From Promethearchaeota archaeon (GTDB taxonomy: Archaea > Asgardarchaeota > Hermodarchaeia > Hermodarchaeales > Hermodarchaeaceae): a DNA stretch of 64,000 nucleotides. Shown here in pieces: positions 18,102-27,621 of the stretch (positions are counted from its first letter, which is position 1; each line of letters starts with the position of its first letter). The position numbers were made by a program, and so were the translations under genes. The stretch spans positions 64,001-128,000 of the forward strand of contig JBHLPH010000002.1 in the NCBI GenBank assembly GCA_048939625.1, read 5' to 3'. The notes under the pieces were generated by a model. The model was given only the letters and a program-made list of their open reading frames with translations, was not told the DNA's origin and did not search any database.

Positions 18102-19475
18102 TTACGCAGGGAATTTCATTGTCACGCCAGGTGTGGGGATTTGTACGGGGATATTGGTGGCTTTGATGAAATTTTTGAAGAGTGCGGGGGCTTCTGTATG
18201 AATTGGTATGACTCGTTTTGGTTGAATTTCTTCCAGGGTTTGTGACAGTTGGAGTGGATGGATGTGGCCTGAACAGTGGGCGGAATACATTGCAAGCCCA
18301 GATAACGCAAGCCAATTGAGTAGTTTTTCAAAGCTAATCTCGCTTTCTTCATTGAACGGCTCTGAAGCGCTCAGCAAGTACACTCCGGATTCAGGGGGTT
18401 TGATTTGCTGAATGGTGCTAATACTGGCAAAACTGCTGCAGAAGATGTATTTGGTTGGGTATTTGTGAAGCTCTTTAGTTGTAACACTTCGATCAGAGAG
18501 CTCTTTAATAGTAGGATCTGCTTCTTTCATTAGTCTTTCATATTTGGAGATACGCTTTTTCTCTCCATCAAACCATCGGATTTCAGTGTCTGTTGCAATG
18601 TTTGGCATGTGGAGGTCACGACATTTATTGATGGCATGAAGAATCCACATTCTTCGAGGGTCAAGCACTAATTGACGATTATTAGCCTTTGCTGCTGTTT
18701 GCATGGTTCGGAAGCGGTCAAAATCTGGTTCAGAAAAATCAGCGATTGCGAGGCTTTTACATCCTTGAATAATCGTAGTAGCTTTTTCGAGTACTTCGTT
18801 TTCAGTGGCTAATTCTGCTTTTGCGATATTAGTTCCTTCACTGAGCACAACGTCTGGTGAACCACCTTTCTGTATCTCATGAACGAAATCTGCGGTGAGA
18901 TGAGGTACAGTTCCATGACGGCGAAAATCGCCTGTATACACGATACTAAGTTCAGAACAGTGAACAATGAAGCCATAAGCTGCGGGGATACTATGATCAA
19001 CATGAACCGGTCGGATGTCTACTCCACCGATTTTCACAGTGTCTCCTGTTCGGAAGGTTTTGATTGTTTGCCCTTCAATATCACAGTCAAAGGTCTTCCG
19101 TGAGCCTTCAAGGCGTGCTTCAAAGATAGTTCTGGTACATTCACCCATATGGATCGGAATGCTTCGGTTCAGTAATGGGAGATAGCCACAGTGATCTGTG
19201 TGGGCATGGGATAATACTACTGCATCAATATCAGAAGTAGGCTGGGTTTTTTTCGATGGTTGATGATAGAGGTTGGGTATGTCAGGTGTAGCGCCAACTT
19301 TGATTAATTCATCAAGGGACCGCGGGGCGATAGGAAAATCATAAAATTCACGCATCGTATCAAAGGATTTCCCGAAGTCGAGAAAGAACTTTACATCATG
19401 ACCTTGATCTTCGATGAGTATTTTATTGGCGCCGATTTCGCCCGCGCCTCCATAGATGGTTATCAATACACTCAT
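18102..19475 (-). CDS. MBL-fold beta-CASP ribonuclease, RNase J-like
   Basis: GG..EIG.N, LDFG, SHAHTDH, VDHSIP, YTGDFR, HCSGH and IPIH. Confidence 0.88.
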   Translation of the reverse strand: MSVLITIYGGAGEIGANKILIEDQGHDVKFFLDFGKSFDTMREFYDFPIAPRSLDELIKVGATPDIPNLYHQPSKKTQPTSDIDAVVLSHAHTDHCGYLPLLNRSIPIHMGECTRTIFEARLEGSRKTFDCDIEGQTIKTFRTGDTVKIGGVDIRPVHVDHSIPAAYGFIVHCSELSIVYTGDFRRHGTVPHLTADFVHEIQKGGSPDVVLSEGTNIAKAELATENEVLEKATTIIQGCKSLAIADFSEPDFDRFRTMQTAAKANNRQLVLDPRRMWILHAINKCRDLHMPNIATDTEIRWFDGEKKRISKYERLMKEADPTIKELSDRSVTTKELHKYPTKYIFCSSFASISTIQQIKPPESGVYLLSASEPFNEESEISFEKLLNWLALSGLAMYSAHCSGHIHPLQLSQTLEEIQPKRVIPIHTEAPALFKNFIKATNIPVQIPTPGVTMKFPA

Positions 19476-19957
19476 GGCTTTTTTCCACCGGACTGATCTT
19501 TTTTACGATTTAATCGACGAATTTTGGGTACATAGCTGCGGAGGATGCCGTGGGAGAGACTTCCGCAGCCTAGGATAGTGTCGTTGTGGGTGACAATTAC
19601 ATATCCTCTTCGGTCGTCTTCATAATTAACCGATTCCCCTCTGAGCCAAGTTTCTGCCTGCAATCTAGTTAATTGGACGATTTGCTTTGTAGCATGAGTA
19701 CCAAGTAGTTGAGCACCATCCATGGAGAGCCGAAATGCTGTGGGCGAGTATTCACCGATGTATAGTCCGGTTGTGCCAGTGTATGGTAATTCCGAAAGGA
19801 GTGCAAATGCTGCATCACTAATAAGGCGAATCCGTTTGCGTCCTGACTTGAGAAACCTAAATCCAGCAAGTTTTGGAATGCCAAATTGGCTATAGAGTAG
19901 TTGCCAGATGTGGGTTTCCCGCGCAGAATCAATGGTCAGTGTTTGGCCGTGAGACAT
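19472..19957 (-). CDS. RsmF C-terminal/PUA-like (NIP7-type) RNA-binding protein
   Basis: GLYIG..FRLSMDGAQL, WLRGE, GYVIV....LGCG and YVPK.RR. Coupled to the upstream methyltransferase by a TAATG overlap. Confidence 0.8.
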   Translation of the reverse strand: MSHGQTLTIDSARETHIWQLLYSQFGIPKLAGFRFLKSGRKRIRLISDAAFALLSELPYTGTTGLYIGEYSPTAFRLSMDGAQLLGTHATKQIVQLTRLQAETWLRGESVNYEDDRRGYVIVTHNDTILGCGSLSHGILRSYVPKIRRLNRKKDQSGGKKP

Positions 19958-20898
19958 TAGGCGTCCTTCCTGATCAAGGCTATGAAGAAGCCGTCTGTAT
20001 CATTATCCTGTGGATAAATTCGAAGACAGTCTTTGAGAGTTTCATGGTAGTGCGTTTTATTCCAGTAGGTGATTCCGGGATGGTAACGAAGGTTTGCGGG
20101 TTGTGGGGATTCAATGGAAGCCAAAGGAAAAGCACCAAGGAGGTGGTCGACCACCGCTTCATTTTCTTCCGGATGCAGACTGCAGGTTGAATAGACTAAC
20201 AGACCTCCCGGTTTGAGTAAGCGGAATGCTGCTGTTAGAAGTCCTTTTTGGATAGTCTGGATGCCGAGAATACGTTGAAGATTAGTAACCTCATATTGAG
20301 GTGATTTACTGCGAAGATGTCCAGACGCGGTGCATGGGGCATCAACAAGGACGCGATCGAATTGAAGAGGGATTCGTGTGGATAGGTGTCGACCATCTTG
20401 GCAAAGTGTGATAGTATTGATGACGCCACACACCTGTATATTGTGACCTAGGCTGGTAAGCCGTCGGAAAGATCTGTCGTTCGCAATTAGTGCGCCTTCG
20501 TTTTTCATCATCTGAGCGATCTGAGTGGTTTTCGATCCGGGAGCGGCACATAAATCAAGAACAACATGGTGTGATTGTGGGTCTAAAATTACGGGAGGAA
20601 CCATACTTCCTCCTTCTTGAATATAGAATAGCCCTAGCGAATATTCTTGGGTAAAGGGGAGTCGCTCATAGTCCCCAGTGATGCGGAATCCATCTGAATA
20701 CCAGGGAAGTGGAACGGGATTAACATTGAGGGCTTCTAATCGAGCGAGACCTGCTGTGAGGTCGGTTTTGATTGTGTTGATGCGGATGAAGTGAGTGGGA
20801 GGTTGGGAAATTGAAGCGAGGAAGCTTAGGTATTCATCTCCAAGAAGGATTTGGAATCGTTCTTCGAAAGCCGATGGGAGAGATTTAGATTTGTTCAT
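19957..20898 (-). CDS. RsmB/NOP2/NSUN-family RNA m5C methyltransferase
   Basis: RINT.K, YIQE..SM.P, DLCAAPGSKT, DAPC, YSTCS..PEENE and DGFF. Confidence 0.95.
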   Translation of the reverse strand: MNKSKSLPSAFEERFQILLGDEYLSFLASISQPPTHFIRINTIKTDLTAGLARLEALNVNPVPLPWYSDGFRITGDYERLPFTQEYSLGLFYIQEGGSMVPPVILDPQSHHVVLDLCAAPGSKTTQIAQMMKNEGALIANDRSFRRLTSLGHNIQVCGVINTITLCQDGRHLSTRIPLQFDRVLVDAPCTASGHLRSKSPQYEVTNLQRILGIQTIQKGLLTAAFRLLKPGGLLVYSTCSLHPEENEAVVDHLLGAFPLASIESPQPANLRYHPGITYWNKTHYHETLKDCLRIYPQDNDTDGFFIALIRKDA

Positions 20899-20926
20899 AT
20901 CTTATAGTGCTTCCTTGAACCCCACA

Positions 20927-22072
20927 TCATGGCGGGGAAGAACTAAGCCGATTCCGATGAATTGACCAGGTGGATATAACGCGATTGCCATCAACAACGT
21001 AATAATGAGCAAAAAGGTTAGCTGTCAGGCATGAATGGTTTGGAATTATACGAAGATGATCACCGGGCGAGAGCGCCTTATGTTGTGTTTTGTCAGCAAA
21101 CGTGATTTTCCCATGTTCCTGAGATAAGCTCGTTATTATTGCCTGATGTGTGGTGTTATTTTCATCCGGATTAAGAACCACTCCATATCCTTGGTTTGAT
21201 GGAATATGTGCTGCTCCGGTATCCTTGGATAAGGCAGTGGCACCGGCGTCGACCACCACATGCGTATCTTGGACACCAACTACGCTGGTAAGCACTGATA
21301 GAGCACAATCGGTGAACCGGCACACGCCAAGTGCGACTTGAGTATTATCAAAAAAGACATAGTTGCCAGGTCGAATTTCGGTTATTCCATCTTTAAATCG
21401 AGTTGCCAGCTTGGCGGTGGGTGTTGAACCTATCGAAACAACCTCAGAAGCTAGTCCATGAGATTGCAAGCTGTCAGAGAAGTGGAGCATTATATCTTGT
21501 TCATGATTAGCAATTGCCTGGATTTCCTGTGGGGATTGAGCAGTGTATGCATGACCCGCATGAGTGAGGATTCCTCCAAAGGTCAGGTTAGACGCCGCAT
21601 CAATTTGCTTTGCAAGAGAAATCGCACGGGAGTCTTGAGGGTCAATCCCACATCGATGATATCCACAATCCACCTTAACTAAGACGGTGAGCTGGAGATC
21701 TGCCGCAATGGAATAGGCTTCCAAGAGGGGAATCATTGCGGAATGATCAGTGACGATATTGAGTTGAGCTTGTTGAGCAAGTTCACCTAGACGAGGAAAT
21801 TTATCAGGAATAATAGGATATGCAAGTGTCACATCCATAAACCCATGATCAATGAACGTACCAGCTTCCCCCAAAGTCGAGACAGTGATGCCGTTTGCGC
21901 CGTATTCACGTTGGAGATTCGCGATTTCCATACATTTGTGTGTTTTAATGTGAGGGCGAAGACAAACCTTGTTTTGATGAGCCTTATCTGCCATGTTCTT
22001 TATGTTTCGGAGAAGTCTACTTTTCTCAATGAGCAAAGCAGGAGTGATTAGGTCATCAATTTTCATCAACAT
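20927..22072 (-). CDS. PLP-dependent fold-type III enzyme, D-serine dehydratase/D-threonine aldolase (DSD1) family
   Basis: TPAL, RPHIKTHK (PLP Lys), HAGH, GSTP, EIRPGNYVF, SQEHG and IPNHSC. Start reassigned to ATG 22072/22066. Confidence 0.92.
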   Translation of the reverse strand: MLMKIDDLITPALLIEKSRLLRNIKNMADKAHQNKVCLRPHIKTHKCMEIANLQREYGANGITVSTLGEAGTFIDHGFMDVTLAYPIIPDKFPRLGELAQQAQLNIVTDHSAMIPLLEAYSIAADLQLTVLVKVDCGYHRCGIDPQDSRAISLAKQIDAASNLTFGGILTHAGHAYTAQSPQEIQAIANHEQDIMLHFSDSLQSHGLASEVVSIGSTPTAKLATRFKDGITEIRPGNYVFFDNTQVALGVCRFTDCALSVLTSVVGVQDTHVVVDAGATALSKDTGAAHIPSNQGYGVVLNPDENNTTHQAIITSLSQEHGKITFADKTQHKALSPGDHLRIIPNHSCLTANLFAHYYVVDGNRVISTWSIHRNRLSSSPP

Positions 22073-22111
22073 CAACTCGTAAATGAACGGATCAACTGCT
22101 GAGAATGTGAA

Positions 22112-22200
22112 AGGTGTGGCTCCGCCTTGACTGAACCCACTTTCCTCGCAGCTCCTAACGGAGGCCTCGGTGGGTTTAAGATAGCCGTGTCGACGGAGCC
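22112..22200 (-). ncRNA. Box H/ACA pseudouridylation guide RNA (single hairpin, K-turn, ACA box)
   Basis: Minus strand: 9-bp lower stem GGCUCCGUC/GGCGGAGCC directly followed by ACA (22117-22115). Pocket strands GGCUAUCUUA and CAGUCA; upper stem AACCCAC/GUGGGUU; CCGA...GCGAGGA K-turn-like motif. ACA is 16 nt from the upper-stem base. Confidence 0.85.
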
Positions 22201-22302
22201 AACTATGCTTTCTGTTCAGCACCTGAAAAAAGCTCCCGTAGAGCGACAAGTGCAACCTTTTTTAACCGCAACAAGCAAAACCCCGTAGTCGAGGGACGCT
22301 TT

Positions 22303-23250
22303 ATGGTGAGCCTAAAATCGTATGAAAAGGTCCGGAAAGCTCTTGAAAAAATCGGGTTACCCGGACAAGATGCCTATGATTTACCAACCAGCGACCACCG
22401 GTTTCCAGATGGAGCCGGCTATCGGATTGAAATCTCGGGCGTTGAACGCCCGGAAGTCTTAGAAGCACTAATTGATGAATCGGATAAACGCGATGTGCCA
22501 GTTCATCGCCTCATTAGTGTCGTCATGGGAGCAACGCTTCTTGACGATAAAGAACTGAAGAAATTTGCCCAACTAGCCCATGATGCACAAATGGAAGTGA
22601 TCCTTACCCCTGGCCCACGAACCAGCTGGGATGTGGGTCGACAACTTGTTACATCTGAAGGTGTCCTGTCAGGAATGCGCTTTCGCGGCGCTGATAAGCT
22701 AGTAGAAGTTATTAGCGATATCAAAAGGGGCATTGAACTAGGCTTCCGAGGTTTCTTAGTCATCGATGAGGGACTACTCTGGGCTTTGAACAAGCTCAAA
22801 GAAATCGGTGAAATCCCGAAGGATATTACCTTCAAGGTAAGCATCTTTGCTGGCCACGCTTCCCCAGCGGGTGGTAAACTGCTAGAAGAATTAGGCGCAG
22901 GTAGCTTCAATCCAGTTGCCGATATGACCGTGCCCCAACTAGCAGCTATTCGCCAAGCAACAAAGCTGCCAATTGACATTCACATCATGCTCATGCCCAG
23001 CTTTGGTGGATTCAATCGATTCTATGAAGCAGCCGAAATTACACGATGCGTCCAACCAGTGTACTACAAATTTGAACCCGGACCGAGTATGGCCTTGTAC
23101 ACACCTTGGTCCTCGATTGACGGCCTAAGTTTCCTTGCCCGTGAAAAAGTCAAATGGGCTGAAATTGTACGAAACTTGATCCAAGATAATTATCCAGAAG
23201 CGAAATTATCAAAACTCGGAGTCAAGGACTTAGCGATCCCTCAACCCTAA
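22303..23250 (+). CDS. Conserved TIM-barrel-like protein (often labelled U32-like), function unknown
   Basis: 315-aa ORF with RFPDGA.YRIEI, G.RGFLV.DEG.L and FKVS; co-oriented with the DapA-Fae gene. Confidence 0.7.
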   Translation: MVSLKSYEKVRKALEKIGLPGQDAYDLPTSDHRFPDGAGYRIEISGVERPEVLEALIDESDKRDVPVHRLISVVMGATLLDDKELKKFAQLAHDAQMEVILTPGPRTSWDVGRQLVTSEGVLSGMRFRGADKLVEVISDIKRGIELGFRGFLVIDEGLLWALNKLKEIGEIPKDITFKVSIFAGHASPAGGKLLEELGAGSFNPVADMTVPQLAAIRQATKLPIDIHIMLMPSFGGFNRFYEAAEITRCVQPVYYKFEPGPSMALYTPWSSIDGLSFLAREKVKWAEIVRNLIQDNYPEAKLSKLGVKDLAIPQP

Positions 23251-23268
23251 AGCGAGGAGCGTTAACAT

Positions 23269-24753
23269 ATGGGATTTAAACCTAGCGGCGTGAATCCAGC
23301 ACTGGTTACGCCGTTTACCAAAGATGGATCGAAAGTTGATGTCACGGCCTTCCGTCAGCTAATTCGCCATTGCATCGATAATTTGGGGGTCACCGGTCTT
23401 GTTCCAGCAGGCACAACTGGAGAATTCACAAGTCTGACATTGACCGAGCACAAGCAAGTAGTAAAGCTTGCAGTTGAAGAAGCAGCAGGTAAGGTGCCAG
23501 TAATTGCAGGAGCCGGAGCGAGTAACACCAAAACAACCATCGAGCTAGTCAAGGCAGCAGAAAAGGCGGGAGCAGATGCGTGTCTGGTGGTCACACCGTA
23601 TTATATGCGTCCAACACTTCGTGGGCTCTATGAGCATTACCGTCAAGTGAGTGAAGTCGGTCTTCCAATTGTTCTGTATAATATCCCTCAATGTACCGGT
23701 CTTGATATGCCGTGGCAAATTGTTGAAGACCTTGCAGATCTTGAAAACATCGTCGGCATCAAAGATTCTAGTGGACAACTAAAGCTCATCCTAGCGGTCT
23801 TGGAGAAAGTTGGTTCGAAAATCAATGTGCTGGTGGGGCATGATGAAGTCGTATTCCCTGCTCTTGCATCGGGTTGTTCGGGGGCTATTCTTGCGAGTGC
23901 CCAATTGATTGGGGATATTTGGTTAGATATGCTCAAGAAGGTACAAGCGAAGAAATTCGATGAAGCCGTTGCACTCCAGTTGAAGGTCCAAAAACTCACG
24001 CGATTGATTGTGGGCTCAGGAGCTGCAGGAACAAAGGCTGGTCTCAAAATGATGGGTGTTCCAGTCGGTAAACCTCGACTACCCTTAACCTTTGGCGGAG
24101 TTCTTACGTATGAGAATCGGGAAGAAATTCGAATCGAACTAGAAAAACTCGGTAAAATCAAGCCCAAAGATGTGATAATTGAAGTCGAACCCAAAGAACC
24201 TCTTAAAGCACGATTTGGGGCATTTGGTTTCTCACCCGACCAGGTTAAAGATTTCTCATTGAAGATTGGTGAAGGGCTCTCTGGGGGTGGAGCTGAAGTC
24301 GCACACATCGACTTGATGATTGGACGTAAGGACGGTCCTGTTGGTTTTGCCTTTGCGCAAGCTAAGGCGGCACCCAAAGAGCGCATGGAACCTCTTCTCG
24401 CCATTCTGGAACCCAACCTCATGGTGAAGCCTGAAACACTGCTCGTTCCAACTGTTGCCAACCGTAGTATGCATCAAGCCAGCCTCTTTGGAGGTCCCGC
24501 ACAAACAGGGTGTGCCAAAGCCGTCATGGATTCCGTTGAAGAAGGTTTTATCCCCAAGTCAGCAGTCGACAAATTAGTAATAATTGCCACAGTCTTTGTC
24601 CATCCCACAGCAGTCGACCGGAAGCGCATCCAAATTAACAACTATAAAGCAATGCGACACGCCATCCGACGAGCCATTGAAGGCCGCCCAAGCATCGAAG
24701 AATTACTCCGCGACAAAGAATTTGCGAAACATCCGTTTCGCTGGGGACCCTGA
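23269..24753 (+). CDS. fae: Fusion: DapA/NAL-family class I aldolase + formaldehyde-activating enzyme (Fae)
   Basis: N-terminal part: VTPF, GTTGE, TPYY, YNIP, GIKDS. C-terminal part: IGE...G.G.EVAHIDL.IG, PNL..KP, GPAQ...AKAV.D, VFVHP, NYKA and HPF. Confidence 0.93.
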   Translation: MGFKPSGVNPALVTPFTKDGSKVDVTAFRQLIRHCIDNLGVTGLVPAGTTGEFTSLTLTEHKQVVKLAVEEAAGKVPVIAGAGASNTKTTIELVKAAEKAGADACLVVTPYYMRPTLRGLYEHYRQVSEVGLPIVLYNIPQCTGLDMPWQIVEDLADLENIVGIKDSSGQLKLILAVLEKVGSKINVLVGHDEVVFPALASGCSGAILASAQLIGDIWLDMLKKVQAKKFDEAVALQLKVQKLTRLIVGSGAAGTKAGLKMMGVPVGKPRLPLTFGGVLTYENREEIRIELEKLGKIKPKDVIIEVEPKEPLKARFGAFGFSPDQVKDFSLKIGEGLSGGGAEVAHIDLMIGRKDGPVGFAFAQAKAAPKERMEPLLAILEPNLMVKPETLLVPTVANRSMHQASLFGGPAQTGCAKAVMDSVEEGFIPKSAVDKLVIIATVFVHPTAVDRKRIQINNYKAMRHAIRRAIEGRPSIEELLRDKEFAKHPFRWGP

Positions 24754-24761
24754 GTCTCCTG

Positions 24762-25745
24762 TTAGAGGATAGATTTGATATTTCCAAGGAATAGGGCAAG
24801 AAAGAGTGCAGCTGAAAGTATGTCAGCAGTGGTTCCTGGATTCAGTTGAGAACCTTGTGAACGGAGGTACTCGTCGAAAGGTTCAGTTTGTGTCGCCCAG
24901 CTCGTTTCTTGCATTTTCATAATTCGTGTATACACTTTCTGGGCACGTTGCATGACATCTTGTGCAACCTCGGCGCCATTTTTCCGTTGGATAAAGGAAT
25001 CGGGGCGATTACTTAGAGCCCAAAGATAGGAGGCAAGGACAGCGTCTTCTGTGCGTGGATGCTGGTTCAGCGCCTTGGTCACTTGAGGGTAGAGCGTATC
25101 AAAGGTGTAAGCGAAGTTCGTGGTATATTCATGGGCAACGGAATCATAACTTGCTGCTAAAGCTTGTAAGTCACAGAGTGTATATTTTTCGCGACGAATC
25201 AACTGAATGGTATGAGGTGATTGGAAATCAAAAGCCTGAGATTGTGGTTTCCATTTGGCTGTTTTAGGAATGGCGCCACCGGGACTAGCTGCCTGTAGGG
25301 CGTGAATAAGTTCAATGGCATCTTCAACAGTAGTATTTGTTAGAATCCGTTTGAGGCTTTGCTGCAATGTTGTTTTTGTGGATCGAGGTCGTGTGATTTC
25401 ATGTCCAGCAGCGGCAGCGAGTGGAACAAGGAGTAGAATTGTGCCAAGTAATGTGTTCTTTCCATGGGGCTCCATTGAGGTTTGGACTGCGAATCTGATG
25501 AGTTTCCCAAGGCGCGAAGGTGTATAATCTGTCGTGCTAAACTCATAGCCCCACTCCGCACTTTGATGAAGGGGATATCCCAAGCTGTTGATGCTGGCAA
25601 CAAAATGGATAAACCGAGTATCAGGGTGGTCCTTGTACCTATGCACATTGCCGGGTTTGGGAGTGAGAATGTCTAAGAACATGGCAAATTGTGCCTTCTC
25701 AGAAATGTCACACAGTTGCTCCTCAACCTTAACTCCCGGAACCAT
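24762..25745 (-). CDS. citG: CitG-family (triphosphoribosyl-dephospho-CoA synthase-like) protein
   Basis: PKPGNVHR, NT.LG..LL..PL, PDS.I.RK.G and NPGTTAD. Confidence 0.9.
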   Translation of the reverse strand: MVPGVKVEEQLCDISEKAQFAMFLDILTPKPGNVHRYKDHPDTRFIHFVASINSLGYPLHQSAEWGYEFSTTDYTPSRLGKLIRFAVQTSMEPHGKNTLLGTILLLVPLAAAAGHEITRPRSTKTTLQQSLKRILTNTTVEDAIELIHALQAASPGGAIPKTAKWKPQSQAFDFQSPHTIQLIRREKYTLCDLQALAASYDSVAHEYTTNFAYTFDTLYPQVTKALNQHPRTEDAVLASYLWALSNRPDSFIQRKNGAEVAQDVMQRAQKVYTRIMKMQETSWATQTEPFDEYLRSQGSQLNPGTTADILSAALFLALFLGNIKSIL

Positions 25746-25857
25746 TTGGGGATATCACCTGTTATGAGAAAAGGGGGATTTGAGTGGTATAAGATGTTTG
25801 GTTGAATCCTTGGAACACCCTCAAGGTTTTTCTCCGGCAACAGAATAATGTCGCTTT

Positions 25858-27201
25858 GTGATGCCGATGCCTCCAAATGAATGGGAACAAAAGGTGCTTT
25901 CCCGGGTTGATGAGTTACGAGATGAGCTCGTAAAATTGTGTCAGGATATTATTCGCATCCCGAGTTGGGATCGCGAGACCAGGGGTGAAGCGGAGGTAGC
26001 TCACCGGGTTGGGAAGACAATGGAAAAGAGGGGAATTCAAACTGAATATGTCACATCTCATCCGAGTATCGATAACCTTGTAGCAACTTGGGCAGCAAAG
26101 AATGGCAAACGCTTACTGTTTAATGGTCATGTAGATGTAGTGCCACCTGGCGAGGATTGGACGGTCGATCCCTTTGCTGCAGAAATCCGCGAGGGTCTCA
26201 TTTATGGACGCGGTGCCATGGACATGAAAGGCGGAGTGGCCTGCATGACGATGGCTATGAGCGCATTACATGATCTTGAGGTGCCATTGAAAGGATCCCT
26301 AATCGTTAATGCAGTTGGCGATGAAGAGCGGCAGGGGAAATTGGGAACAGCATATTGTATTGAAAACGCTTGGAAGAAGATTAAAGCAGATGCAGCAATT
26401 GTTGCTGAGCCTTCAGGAATTGGGCAGTTCGGACACGCTGTTAATATTGGTGAGAAGGGGCCGGTGTGGATGAAGGTTACGACAAAGGGTGAGAAAGCAC
26501 ATGGCAGTATACCATCAGCCGGAAAGAATGCCATTATCATGATGTTTGAGTTGCTTGAAGCCCTCCGTCAAGCTAAACCTCCAACAATTCCACCTCCCAT
26601 AACCCGTAAAGCAATTATTCACCAGTTCGCTGCCAGTTTAAACCTTGAACCAGAAGTGATGGAGTCATTTATTGAAAAGGGAGGTGAATCTAATCCGTTC
26701 TCCGCAGGATTAGAGGGACTTACAGCAAGTACGATGAACATCGGAACAATAAACGGAGGAGTCGCTGCCAATGTAGTACCTGACCGCTGTAATGCCCAAA
26801 TAGATTTTCGGATTCTCCCAGGCCAAACACCGCAGGAGATGGTTGAGTTCATTCAACACTATGCGGAGAAGCTGGGAATCTCAGAGGTCTGTGACATCGA
26901 AATCATTGAAGCATTTGAGGGCAACTCCATTCCCAATTATGAACAAAACAAAATCGTAACCACCATGTTTGATGCCTCAAAAGAAATCGCAGGACCTACT
27001 GTATATTTCCTAGTACCATATGCTACAGATGGTCGCCTTCTCCGCCGCGCGGGCATCGAGTCAACAGTGGTCTATGGACCCGGAAATTTATTCTTAGCGC
27101 ATACAGCAGACGAAAACGTTGCTATTGAGGACTTGGTTAAAGTGACCAAAGTCTTTGCACTGACTGCAATCCGCTATCTGGGAGTGAAGGACTATCGATA
27201 A
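25858..27201 (+). CDS. M20 family (ArgE/DapE-like) metallo-amidohydrolase
   Basis: NGHVDVVP, GRGA.DMKGG, DEE, AEPS, HGS.P and AH..DE. Confidence 0.93.
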   Translation: MMPMPPNEWEQKVLSRVDELRDELVKLCQDIIRIPSWDRETRGEAEVAHRVGKTMEKRGIQTEYVTSHPSIDNLVATWAAKNGKRLLFNGHVDVVPPGEDWTVDPFAAEIREGLIYGRGAMDMKGGVACMTMAMSALHDLEVPLKGSLIVNAVGDEERQGKLGTAYCIENAWKKIKADAAIVAEPSGIGQFGHAVNIGEKGPVWMKVTTKGEKAHGSIPSAGKNAIIMMFELLEALRQAKPPTIPPPITRKAIIHQFAASLNLEPEVMESFIEKGGESNPFSAGLEGLTASTMNIGTINGGVAANVVPDRCNAQIDFRILPGQTPQEMVEFIQHYAEKLGISEVCDIEIIEAFEGNSIPNYEQNKIVTTMFDASKEIAGPTVYFLVPYATDGRLLRRAGIESTVVYGPGNLFLAHTADENVAIEDLVKVTKVFALTAIRYLGVKDYR

Positions 27202-27204
27202 AAT

Positions 27205-27621
27205 CTAGGCAGGACGGAAAACCAGCCGCATCACCGCTTCACTGTCAGCAGATCCAGGGAATTCCTCAAAATCAGCTACTACCGCATCACCCACATGAAT
27301 TTCTTCGGGTTTGAGGGGATCAACTCCTACTAACCGAGTACAGACAGATGGACCTTCCTTGAGTGCCACAATAGCAACGATATAGGGAACATCCTCCGAG
27401 TACTTGATTCCAGCAATGTGAATCACTGTAAAGGAACGAAGTGTCCCTTCTCCACTGAGTTGAGTCCAATCAGTAGTTTTACTATTACAATTTGGACAGA
27501 ACAATCGTGGAGGCAGATGAAGTGCATCACAGCTCGAACAATGGGCTGCACATAGTTTCTGTTCATTGATTAACTCAAAGAATTTCTTGATAGTTGTTTC
27601 TTCACTCATCTCGATTACCAC
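27205..27621 (-). CDS. DUF35 Zn-ribbon/OB-fold thiolase partner
   Basis: CxxC..PPR..CxxC and SG.G.L.SFTV; adjacent to the thiolase gene. Confidence 0.92.
   Translation of the reverse strand: MVIEMSEETTIKKFFELINEQKLCAAHCSSCDALHLPPRLFCPNCNSKTTDWTQLSGEGTLRSFTVIHIAGIKYSEDVPYIVAIVALKEGPSVCTRLVGVDPLKPEEIHVGDAVVADFEEFPGSADSEAVMRLVFRPA

What the first reader, a model, noticed from the sequence alone, without database searches (positions are those of the whole stretch)
20927..25745. Aldolase-Fae fusion cluster: a possible formaldehyde-releasing catabolic route feeding H4MPT
Seen: the DapA-family domain keeps the Schiff-base Lys (GIKDS) and Tyr (YNIP), but has PQCTG where true DHDPS has the ASA-binding Arg (P.RTG). 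It is fused to an intact-looking Fae (VAHID His). Neighbours are an unknown TIM-barrel gene upstream, a divergent DSD/D-threonine-aldolase-family enzyme, and a convergent CitG homolog. Known: Fae condenses formaldehyde with H4MPT; the well-characterised fusion is Fae-Hps; CitG-like genes occur in H4MPT-linked C1 clusters. Inference: retro-aldol cleavage of a 2-oxo acid such as 4-hydroxy-2-oxobutanoate to pyruvate + formaldehyde, channelled to methylene-H4MPT, with the PLP enzyme possibly supplying the oxo acid from a hydroxy-amino acid.
Basis: partly seen in the sequence, partly recalled or inferred. Interest (0 to 1): 0.7.

Follow-up and report, generated by a model that had tools for sequence, protein, structure and literature searches.

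The report
Aldolase-Fae fusion with barrel partner
This Asgard archaeal gene, labelled in databases as the lysine enzyme DapA, fuses a different pyruvate-type aldolase to a formaldehyde-activating domain; it always travels with an uncharacterised barrel enzyme and probably joins pyruvate to a carrier-bound one-carbon unit, a reaction known so far only from engineered pathways.

Summary
Gene 23269-24753 (+) encodes a DHDPS-fold aldolase and a full Fae domain, joined by a disordered linker. Schiff-base Lys165, Tyr137 and TTGE are invariant. The Arg that binds aspartate semialdehyde in true DapA is never Arg in 127 family members.

The genome has Ftr, Mch and Fae-Hps. I found no dapB, asd, homoserine dehydrogenase or second DHDPS gene, so this is not DapA.

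Of the proposed four-gene cluster, only the upstream 315-aa gene is a conserved partner. It is a divergent, Cys-poor U32-superfamily TIM barrel. Where it is missing (most Bathyarchaeia, two Asgard families), a remotely homologous 430-aa protein takes its place. CitG and the M20 gene are syntenic only in close relatives. The D-Ser/D-hydroxyaspartate dehydratase-like gene is sporadic.

The fusion anticorrelates with homoserine dehydrogenase in both Asgard and Bathyarchaeia samples. A histidine-pathway control does not explain this.

Best reading: methylene-H4MPT + pyruvate <-> 4-hydroxy-2-oxobutanoate, probably in the synthetic direction towards homoserine and threonine. Weak points: no homoserine kinase was found, the lineage is a broad auxotroph, and Chloroflexi carriers keep Hom and lack Mch.

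The scan found this family before on other DNA with the same reading.

The parts
22303..23250 (+). 315-aa partner gene: a divergent, Cys-poor TIM barrel of the peptidase-U32 superfamily; function unknown
   Evidence: No Pfam or NCBIfam hit. The AF2 model is a TIM barrel. PDB matches are generic: CutC Z 15, class II aldolases Z 14.5, U32 Mk0906 Z 13.2. Of 31 distant homologues, 14 hit PF01136. Nearest Atlas clusters are 'Peptidase U32'. It has one Cys. It is 65-70% identical across Asgard, Bathyarchaeia and Chloroflexi. It is adjacent to the fusion in five Asgard families, in Chloroflexi and in 8 Bathyarchaeia loci.
23254..23259 (+). GAGGAG ribosome-binding site in the 18-nt gap between the barrel gene and the fusion
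   Evidence: Sequence read. TAA stop at 23248-23250, ATG at 23269. The layout implies co-transcription.
23269..24153 (+). Aldolase domain of the fusion (residues 1-295): DHDPS-fold class I pyruvate aldolase lacking the DapA Arg
   Evidence: Pfam DHDPS 247 bits. K165, Y137 and T49-T50 are invariant. Position 142 is C/V/T/A and never R in 127 sequences. An invariant GHDE 190-193 replaces the G(D/E)D of DHDPS. The domain is well folded in the model.
24175..24252 (+). Flexible linker (residues 303-328)
   Evidence: pLDDT below 50 in the AF2 model; pTM 0.61, so the domain orientation is undefined.
24256..24738 (+). Fae domain (residues 330-490)
   Evidence: Pfam Fae 189 bits; TIGR03126 195 bits against cut-off 118. 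It aligns end to end with M. extorquens Fae 1Y5Y, including EVAHIDL.
24762..25745 (-). CitG-like gene, convergent; context only
   Evidence: Pfam CitG 209 bits, but 44 bits against cut-off 272 for the citG equivalog. Single copy in the genome; the family also rings in 4 archaeal control genomes. It is adjacent to the fusion only in the window's own family.
20927..22072 (-). PLP enzyme of the D-serine dehydratase / D-threo-3-hydroxyaspartate dehydratase family, divergent; context only
   Evidence: Best PDB matches are 3WQC (221 bits) and 3ANU (186 bits); D-threonine aldolase scores 125 bits. It is present beside the fusion in only 3 related loci.
25858..27201 (+). M20 ArgE/DapE-family deacylase; context only
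   Evidence: TIGR01910 271 bits. Syntenic only in close relatives.

Best explanation
The 494-aa protein is a two-domain enzyme. It moves a one-carbon unit between methylene-H4MPT and pyruvate. The Fae domain interconverts methylene-H4MPT with H4MPT plus formaldehyde. The DHDPS-fold domain holds pyruvate as a Schiff base/enamine on Lys165 and adds it to formaldehyde. Net reaction: methylene-H4MPT + pyruvate + H2O <-> H4MPT + 4-hydroxy-2-oxobutanoate (HOB). In vivo it most likely runs towards HOB. HOB would then be transaminated to homoserine and feed threonine synthase, standing in for the missing aspartate-semialdehyde / homoserine-dehydrogenase route. The co-transcribed U32-like barrel is a dedicated partner enzyme acting on a substrate or product of this reaction; its step is unknown. 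Shown here: the domain architecture, the conserved and the missing catalytic residues, the gene distributions and the partner linkage. Inferred: the substrates, the product, the direction and the link to homoserine.
For: Domains and residues. Not DapA: position 142 is never Arg in 127 members. The only DHDPS-family gene in the genome is the fusion. dapB, PF02774 (Asd/ArgC/LysY) and Hom were not found; the same holds for Hom and PF02774 in two closed carrier genomes. H4MPT genes are present: Mch, Ftr, GXGXG, Fae-Hps. thrC is present and passes NF006050, 351 bits against cut-off 303. thrC is kept in carrier lineages without Hom: f1 genus 14/14, f6 24/26, f12 3/3. Complementarity with Hom in the Asgard sample: Hom in 10/68 fusion carriers against 47/83 non-carriers. 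In the Bathyarchaeia sample: 4/25 against 59/76. Within Asgard family f9: 4/16 against 7/9. The control marker HisD is not significantly linked to the fusion (18/68 against 30/83, p 0.22). Among HisD-positive genomes, Hom is in 27/30 non-carriers but only 7/18 carriers. Chemical precedent: HOB aldolase plus transaminase gives homoserine in the engineered homoserine cycle (PMC8879981). Fae-Hps is the precedent for fusing Fae to a formaldehyde-handling aldolase. Partner linkage.
Against: There is no biochemical evidence. No homoserine kinase was found in this genome or in two closed carrier genomes (thrB or the TIGR02535 type over cut-off). No MetX was found, so the only recognisable homoserine-pathway consumer is thrC. 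The window's family is a broad auxotroph (no HisD in 0/19, no ArgC/LysY), so loss of Hom could be part of general gene loss. Chloroflexi carriers have Hom; G151 also has thrB, and they lack Mch. Fourteen sampled archaeal genomes carry both the fusion and Hom. Families f16 and f19 keep thrC with neither Hom nor the fusion. The genomes are related, so the Fisher tests overstate significance. The model gives the conserved barrel partner no defined role.
Confidence: 0.45

Rival explanations
1. Same chemistry, catabolic direction. A 4-hydroxy-2-oxo acid such as HOB is cleaved to pyruvate plus formaldehyde. The fused Fae traps the formaldehyde as methylene-H4MPT for oxidation or for C1 supply.
For: Fae-Hps, the known analogue, works in the formaldehyde-capturing direction in archaea (established knowledge). 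The lineage looks like an amino-acid and peptide consumer: it lacks HisD, ArgC/LysY, Asd and Hom. Its neighbours include an M20 deacylase and a D-amino-acid dehydratase-like gene. Distant homologues of the barrel sit in catabolic operons with TRAP/ABC transporters, oxoprolinase/hydantoinase, creatininase and amidohydrolases. Chloroflexi carriers keep a normal Hom-thrB-thrC route.
Against: No source of HOB is evident. The PLP gene proposed as supplier is not conserved with the fusion. A catabolic role does not predict the specific anticorrelation with Hom, which persists among HisD-positive genomes.
Confidence: 0.2
2. A hydroxymethyl transfer or aldol reaction with other substrates. The donor could be another 2-oxo acid or the acceptor another small aldehyde. 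The U32-like barrel makes or consumes the real substrate, and the product is not on the homoserine route (for example a cofactor or a specialised metabolite).
For: The barrel partner, in two remotely homologous forms, is tied to the fusion across three phyla yet has no role in the HOB-homoserine scheme. Barrel genes also lie beside nitroreductase and corrinoid methyltransferase genes. No homoserine kinase or MetX was found. The invariant Gln141 and the GHDE 190-193 motif have no counterpart in characterised DHDPS-family enzymes aligned here.
Against: PanB is present, so ketopantoate does not need a new enzyme. All characterised DHDPS-family enzymes use pyruvate or a pyruvate-derived moiety (established knowledge). 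An intact Fae domain points to formaldehyde as the one-carbon species.
Confidence: 0.25
3. A genuine DapA (4-hydroxy-tetrahydrodipicolinate synthase) that happens to be fused to Fae, as the databases annotate it.
For: It scores above the TIGR00674 dapA equivalog cut-off (230.7 against 206.15). Its best PDB matches are all DHDPS. It is the only DHDPS-family gene in the genome.
Against: The ASA-binding Arg is absent in all 127 members. No asd is found to make the substrate and no dapB to use the product, in this genome and in two closed carrier genomes. A standalone Asgard DHDPS with YNVPSRTG shows what the true enzyme looks like in the phylum.
Confidence: 0.03

Closest known systems
Fae-Hps (bifunctional 5,6,7,8-tetrahydromethanopterin hydro-lyase / 3-hexulose-6-phosphate synthase) of methanogens and other archaea
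   Same: An Fae domain is fused to an aldolase whose substrate or product is formaldehyde, in an organism with H4MPT. This genome also carries a canonical Fae-Hps (394 aa).
   Different: The partner domain here is a class I, Lys-Schiff-base DHDPS-fold aldolase acting on a 2-oxo acid. Hps is a metal-dependent OMPDC-fold enzyme acting on a sugar phosphate. The domain order is reversed (Fae is C-terminal). A 25-residue disordered linker joins the domains. A separate barrel protein is genetically coupled.
DapA / DHDPS (EC 4.3.3.7)
   Same: Same fold. It has the Schiff-base Lys, the Tyr-Thr-Tyr relay and the pyruvate-binding TTGE. It is the closest sequence family (about 175 bits to solved DHDPS).
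   Different: It lacks the ASA-binding Arg and has Gln-Cys/Val instead. It has GHDE in place of G(D/E)D. There is no asd or dapB in the genome. It is fused to Fae.
HOB aldolase step of the engineered homoserine cycle (promiscuous E. coli RhmA; PMC8879981)
   Same: The proposed chemistry: pyruvate + formaldehyde -> 4-hydroxy-2-oxobutanoate -> homoserine -> threonine.
   Different: RhmA is a class II metal aldolase working promiscuously on free formaldehyde in an engineered strain. Here a natural class I aldolase would take the C1 unit from methylene-H4MPT through a fused Fae.
PanB, ketopantoate hydroxymethyltransferase
   Same: Net transfer of a hydroxymethyl group from a methylene-tetrahydropterin to C3 of a 2-oxo acid.
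   Different: Unrelated fold and a metal-dependent mechanism. PanB is itself present in this genome.
Peptidase U32 superfamily (UbiU/UbiV, TrhP, RlhA, Mk0906), for the partner gene
   Same: TIM-barrel fold. Homology is transitive: 14 of 31 distant homologues hit PF01136. Structural Z is 13.2 to 5D88.
   Different: The protein itself does not hit PF01136. It has one Cys, so it cannot hold the Fe-S cluster of the characterised hydroxylases. It is linked to a C1/oxo-acid enzyme, not to quinone or RNA modification.

Membership tests
DapA / DHDPS (EC 4.3.3.7) | Schiff-base Lys (E. coli K161) and the Tyr133/Thr44/Tyr107 relay | tested here: met
   K165, Y137 and T49/T50 are invariant in 127 sequences. 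Y112 is present in 121/127; position 111 is Y or F.
DapA / DHDPS (EC 4.3.3.7) | Arg138 that binds the carboxylate of aspartate semialdehyde | tested here: not met
   Position 142 is C in 106, V in 16, T in 3 and A in 2 of 127 sequences, never R. It is aligned under the Arg of solved DHDPS.
DapA / DHDPS (EC 4.3.3.7) | Pathway context: asd upstream and dapB downstream in the same genome | tested here: not met
   TIGR00036 and PF02774 were not found in G000, which is 87.6% complete. PF02774 was also not found in two closed carrier genomes.
DapA / DHDPS (EC 4.3.3.7) | Score above the curated equivalog HMM cut-off | tested here: met
   TIGR00674 scores 230.7 against 206.15. This explains the database name, but the cut-off does not separate this subfamily.
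Fae (formaldehyde-activating enzyme, EC 4.2.1.147) | Full-length Fae domain above the curated cut-off, with the conserved EVAHID His | tested here: met
   TIGR03126 scores 195 against 118. It aligns to 1Y5Y over residues 5-166, with EVAHIDL kept. The His is kept in most of 127 members; one Chloroflexi paralogue has Gln.
Fae (formaldehyde-activating enzyme, EC 4.2.1.147) | H4MPT-dependent C1 pathway in the same organism | tested here: met
   Mch, Ftr, a GXGXG subunit and Fae-Hps are present. Mtd and Mer were not searched. Chloroflexi carriers lack Mch.
Fae (formaldehyde-activating enzyme, EC 4.2.1.147) | Catalysis of formaldehyde + H4MPT condensation | not testable with these tools
   Needs an enzyme assay.
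Fae-Hps type bifunctional enzymes | Fae fused to 3-hexulose-6-phosphate synthase (OMPDC/HUMPS fold) | tested here: not met
   The partner domain is DHDPS, not OMPdecase. The genome's true Fae-Hps is a separate gene.
Peptidase U32 superfamily (partner gene 22303-23250) | Match to PF01136 | tested here: inconclusive
   P0122 itself has no hit. Of 31 homologues at 26-63% identity, 14 hit PF01136, best E 7.7e-8. Atlas feature search scores 0.98 to U32 clusters.
Peptidase U32 superfamily (partner gene 22303-23250) | Cys ligands of the 4Fe-4S cluster of UbiU/V, TrhP and RlhA | tested here: not met
   There is one Cys in 315 residues.
CitG (triphosphoribosyl-dephospho-CoA synthase) | Score above the citG or mdcB equivalog cut-offs | tested here: not met
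   TIGR03125 scores 44 against 272; TIGR03132 scores 34 against 282. Only the broad Pfam family is met, at 209 bits.
D-serine dehydratase / D-threo-3-hydroxyaspartate dehydratase / D-threonine aldolase family | Ala_racemase_N + D-ser_dehydrat domain pair | tested here: met
   Pfam scores 85 and 81 bits. It is closest to 3WQC and 3ANU. It is far below the BhcC equivalog cut-off, 155 against 690.

The most novel reading that the evidence does not exclude
The barrel gene plus the aldolase-Fae fusion form a widespread, undescribed archaeal module. It builds the C4 skeleton of homoserine and threonine from pyruvate and a Wood-Ljungdahl-derived C1 unit (methylene-H4MPT), replacing aspartate-semialdehyde dehydrogenase and homoserine dehydrogenase in many Asgard archaea and Bathyarchaeia. 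This would be a natural counterpart of the engineered homoserine cycle's key step. The U32-like barrel, in either of its two remotely related forms, would catalyse an unknown obligatory step.
Probability: 0.3. Interest if true: 0.85.

Novelty: new variant of a known kind. Interest (0 to 1): 0.7.

Why it matters
If the reading holds, thousands of 'DapA' annotations in Asgard and Bathyarchaeia genomes are wrong. Metabolic reconstructions of these uncultured lineages would then misread both lysine and threonine metabolism. It would also show a natural enzyme for pyruvate + C1 -> C4, a reaction that synthetic-methylotrophy projects had to borrow from promiscuous aldolases. That would link the archaeal Wood-Ljungdahl C1 pool directly to amino-acid synthesis. 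Separately, the work defines two large protein families with no annotation: the 315-aa type, with 869 clusters at 50% identity, and the 430-aa type, with at least 8000 proteins. Their genomic coupling to the fusion makes their function experimentally approachable.

Tried and rejected
- Ketopantoate synthesis (a PanB analogue): set aside because PanB is present.
- True DapA: rejected on residues and pathway context.
- The PLP gene as supplier of the oxo acid: not conserved with the fusion. By similarity it is a dehydratase-type enzyme that would give pyruvate or oxaloacetate, not HOB.
- CitG as part of the unit: adjacency is confined to one family.
- Complex prediction of the fusion with the barrel protein: no verdict (score 0.00). 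This is not evidence either way.
- PDB fold searches for the barrel gave only generic TIM-barrel matches with no clear winner.
- The sequence search of PDB for the barrel found nothing.
- The Atlas feature search for the 430-aa protein gave only chance-level scores of about 0.8.
- Literature searches for a described DHDPS-Fae enzyme or a natural HOB/H4MPT link found no relevant paper in the held library.
- MetX as a second homoserine consumer: not found.
- Homoserine kinase of either known type: not found over cut-off in G000, G153 or G154.
- The two ~870 and ~816 aa genes upstream of the tandem fusions in Asgard family f6 have no Pfam match.

Full report
**1. What is in the window**

The region holds five genes:
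- 20927-22255 (-): a PLP enzyme with Ala_racemase_N + D-ser_dehydrat domains.
- 22303-23250 (+): a 315-aa protein with no Pfam or NCBIfam match.
- 23269-24753 (+): a 494-aa protein with DHDPS (residues 5-274) and Fae (333-490) domains.
- 24762-25745 (-): a CitG-family protein.
- 25858-27201 (+): an M20 ArgE/DapE-family deacylase.

The 315-aa gene and the fusion are 18 nt apart, with a GAGGAG ribosome-binding site before the fusion's ATG. They are almost certainly co-transcribed. CitG is convergent, 8 nt from the fusion's stop. The PLP gene is divergent. Its annotated TTG start is probably too far upstream: relatives are 378-384 aa and the Pfam match begins at residue 77.

The organism is an Asgard archaeon close to MAGs labelled Hermodarchaeota/Promethearchaeota. 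Its assembly is 2.31 Mb and 87.6% complete.

**2. The fusion protein**

An AF2 model shows two well-folded domains, a TIM barrel (residues 1-295) and an Fae fold (330-488). They are joined by a disordered linker (303-328), and the relative orientation is undefined (pLDDT 82, pTM 0.61).

The Fae domain aligns end to end with the solved Methylorubrum Fae (1Y5Y), including EVAHIDL. It passes the curated Fae cut-off.

The aldolase domain is closest to true DHDPS and even passes the dapA equivalog cut-off (230.7 against 206.15). That is why every database record calls it 4-hydroxy-tetrahydrodipicolinate synthase.

I aligned 127 family members from Asgard archaea, Bathyarchaeia and Chloroflexi:
- The Schiff-base Lys165, Tyr137 and TTGE 49-52 are invariant.
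- The residue under the aspartate-semialdehyde-binding Arg of DHDPS is Cys (106), Val (16), Thr (3) or Ala (2). It is never Arg.
- Gln141 is invariant.
- An invariant GHDE (190-193) replaces the G(D/E)D of DHDPS.

A standalone Asgard DHDPS with the canonical YNVPSRTG motif shows the contrast within the phylum.

**3. Genome context**

The fusion is the only DHDPS-family gene in the genome. I did not find:
- dapB
- any PF02774 protein, that is Asd, ArgC or LysY
- homoserine dehydrogenase
- thrB or the alternative kinase type
- MetX
- HisD

Present are Ftr, an FwdC/FhcC-like GXGXG protein and Mch in one cluster, a canonical Fae-Hps, PanB, and a threonine synthase that passes its equivalog cut-off.

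Two closed carrier genomes give the same picture: Mch present, Hom and PF02774 absent, thrC-like genes present, no thrB. One is a Bathyarchaeia chromosome and the other Candidatus Atabeyarchaeum.

The protein therefore cannot act as DapA. Its substrate cannot be made and its product cannot be used.

**4. Which neighbours belong to it**

I examined 52 related loci, a 151-genome Asgard sample and further contigs.

The 315-aa gene:
- It lies next to the fusion in all complete loci of the window's family.
- It is also adjacent in four other Asgard families, in Atabeyarchaeum, in 8 Bathyarchaeia loci and in Anaerolineae. In Anaerolineae it precedes two tandem fusions.
- Close homologues occur only in fusion-bearing genomes, apart from contig-end truncations.
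- It is more conserved than the fusion: 97% against 89% identity in the nearest relative, and 65-70% across phyla.

The other neighbours:
- CitG and the M20 gene are adjacent only within the window's family.
- The PLP gene is adjacent in 3 loci only.

The proposed four-gene cluster therefore reduces to a two-gene module.

**5. The partner protein**

Its AF2 model is a TIM barrel. Fold matches are generic: CutC, class II aldolases, MJ1099 and the U32 protein Mk0906.

Homology to the peptidase U32 superfamily is supported transitively. Of 31 homologues at 26-63% identity, 14 hit PF01136. Atlas searches also point to U32 clusters.

It has a single Cys, so it cannot carry the Fe-S cluster of the characterised U32 hydroxylases. 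The superfamily is large, with 869 clusters at 50% identity.

Distant bacterial members sit in catabolic operons with TRAP or ABC transporters, oxoprolinase/hydantoinase, creatininase and amidohydrolases. A 52%-identical member, and the Atabeyarchaeum copy, lie beside nitroreductase and corrinoid-methyltransferase genes.

In Bathyarchaeia the commonest neighbour of the fusion is a 427-430 aa protein with no Pfam match. It is found in 28 of 40 loci, usually divergent and about 200 nt away. It never coincides with the 315-aa type, which occupies 8 loci. Of the four loci with neither, three have the fusion at a contig end and one (L032) lacks both types within 8 kb.

Profile-profile comparison links the two families: probability 83%, E 8.7e-6, 180 columns, with a shared D-x-x-F-K-[IV]-S-[IV]-F-x-G motif.

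Asgard families f9 and f27 carry the fusion but no 315-aa gene. There the 430-aa gene lies directly upstream on the same strand, overlapping the fusion by 4 nt in one locus.

Family f6 has tandem fusions and neither barrel. Instead, two conserved unannotated genes of about 870 and 816 aa precede the pair.

The 430-aa family has at least 8000 members, all 'hypothetical'. This recurrent coupling to one or other form of a remotely homologous protein argues for a dedicated functional partner.

**7. Mechanism and direction**

The residues indicate a class I pyruvate aldolase with a remodelled acceptor pocket, fused to a formaldehyde/H4MPT enzyme. The simplest reaction is methylene-H4MPT + pyruvate + H2O <-> H4MPT + 4-hydroxy-2-oxobutanoate.

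This follows the logic of Fae-Hps and of PanB. It is also the aldol step of the engineered homoserine cycle (PMC8879981).

For direction I tested complementarity with homoserine dehydrogenase (Hom):

| Sample | Hom among fusion carriers | Hom among non-carriers |
|---|---|---|
| Asgard, 151 genomes | 10/68 | 47/83 |
| Asgard family f9 only | 4/16 | 7/9 |
| Bathyarchaeia, 101 genomes | 4/25 | 59/76 |
| Asgard, HisD-positive genomes only | 7/18 | 27/30 |

Many carrier lineages are broad auxotrophs, so I used HisD as a control marker. HisD is not significantly associated with the fusion (18/68 against 30/83, p 0.22). The anticorrelation with Hom persists among HisD-positive genomes, as the last row shows.

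thrC is retained in carrier lineages that lack Hom. This favours the synthetic direction, with HOB as a homoserine precursor.

**8. Weaknesses**

- There is no biochemical evidence.
- No homoserine kinase or MetX was found in this genome or in the closed carrier genomes.
- The window's own family lacks histidine, arginine and lysine pathway markers, so loss of Hom may be generic there.
- Chloroflexi carriers have Hom, one has thrB-thrC, and they lack Mch. The enzyme must therefore do something compatible with a normal threonine route and perhaps another C1 carrier.
- Fourteen sampled archaeal genomes carry both genes. Two Asgard families keep thrC with neither.
- The genomes are related, so the p-values overstate the case.
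- The model assigns no role to the partner barrel.

I therefore give 0.45 to the stated reaction with synthetic direction, 0.2 to the same chemistry run catabolically, 0.25 to a related reaction with other substrates, and 0.03 to true DapA.

**9. Prior notes and novelty**

The scan has met this family before on other genomes. Earlier follow-up agents reached the same homoserine reading, and first readers called the partner 'U32-like'. I formed the homoserine idea before that look-up (notes) and re-tested it independently. Those notes are not independent evidence.

- the HisD control
- the transitive U32 link
- the second, remotely homologous partner type and its mutual exclusivity with the first
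- the negative results for thrB and MetX
- the demonstration that CitG, the M20 gene and the PLP gene are not part of the conserved unit

I found no paper describing the fusion in the held library.

Noticed in passing
L004:5575-6867 (-); L121:7252-8559 (+); about 28 Bathyarchaeia loci: A 427-430 aa protein family with no Pfam match and at least 8000 members. It lies next to the aldolase-Fae fusion wherever the 315-aa barrel is missing, and it is remotely homologous to that barrel (hhalign probability 83%). This genome has no copy.
   Followed up: partly
L117:3103-8162 (+); L118:12179-17428 (-); L129, L130, L131: In Asgard family f6, the tandem fusion pair is preceded by two conserved genes of about 870 and 816 aa with no Pfam match. 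They form a four-gene operon-like block.
   Followed up: partly
L088:7001-11486; L090:7001-11583 (Anaerolineae): Chloroflexi carry barrel gene -> fusion (476 aa, with the Fae His replaced by Gln) -> Cys-rich DUF6485 -> fusion (489 aa). The block is flanked by TAL_FSA, an aldehyde:ferredoxin oxidoreductase, a class II aldolase and an FGGY kinase. The one Anaerolineae genome that could be searched (that of L088) lacks Mch and has Hom; L090's genome was not held.
   Followed up: partly
G000:C38, L094:9653-10312 (-): A 219-aa ORF with no Pfam or NCBIfam match lies 2 nt upstream of threonine synthase on the same strand. It is a candidate for a missing step such as a non-orthologous homoserine kinase.
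   Followed up: no
L089:7001-10410; L103:1441-9064: Barrel-family genes sit beside a nitroreductase and corrinoid methyltransferase components (B12-binding + URO-D in L089; three MttB genes in L103). This hints at a link to methyl-group metabolism.
   Followed up: no
window 22073-22302: A 230-nt gap lies between the probable start of the PLP gene and the barrel gene. Rfam found no match in 20000-27500.
   Followed up: partly
window 19472-20898 (-): RsmF-type rRNA methyltransferase is encoded as two abutting ORFs: the catalytic part at 19957-20898 and the PUA part at 19472-19957. The split is conserved in related genomes.
   Followed up: no
window 34208-56652 (-): Four consecutive giant ORFs (2115, 2113, 1609 and 1414 aa) on the minus strand in a region of lower G+C. 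They were not examined.
   Followed up: no
PDB 8ub7 chain B: A solved 290-aa chain named 'Avd' matches the Fae domain over its residues 125-287 (E 1.8e-32). This is another Fae-domain fusion with a solved structure whose biology I did not look up.
   Followed up: no
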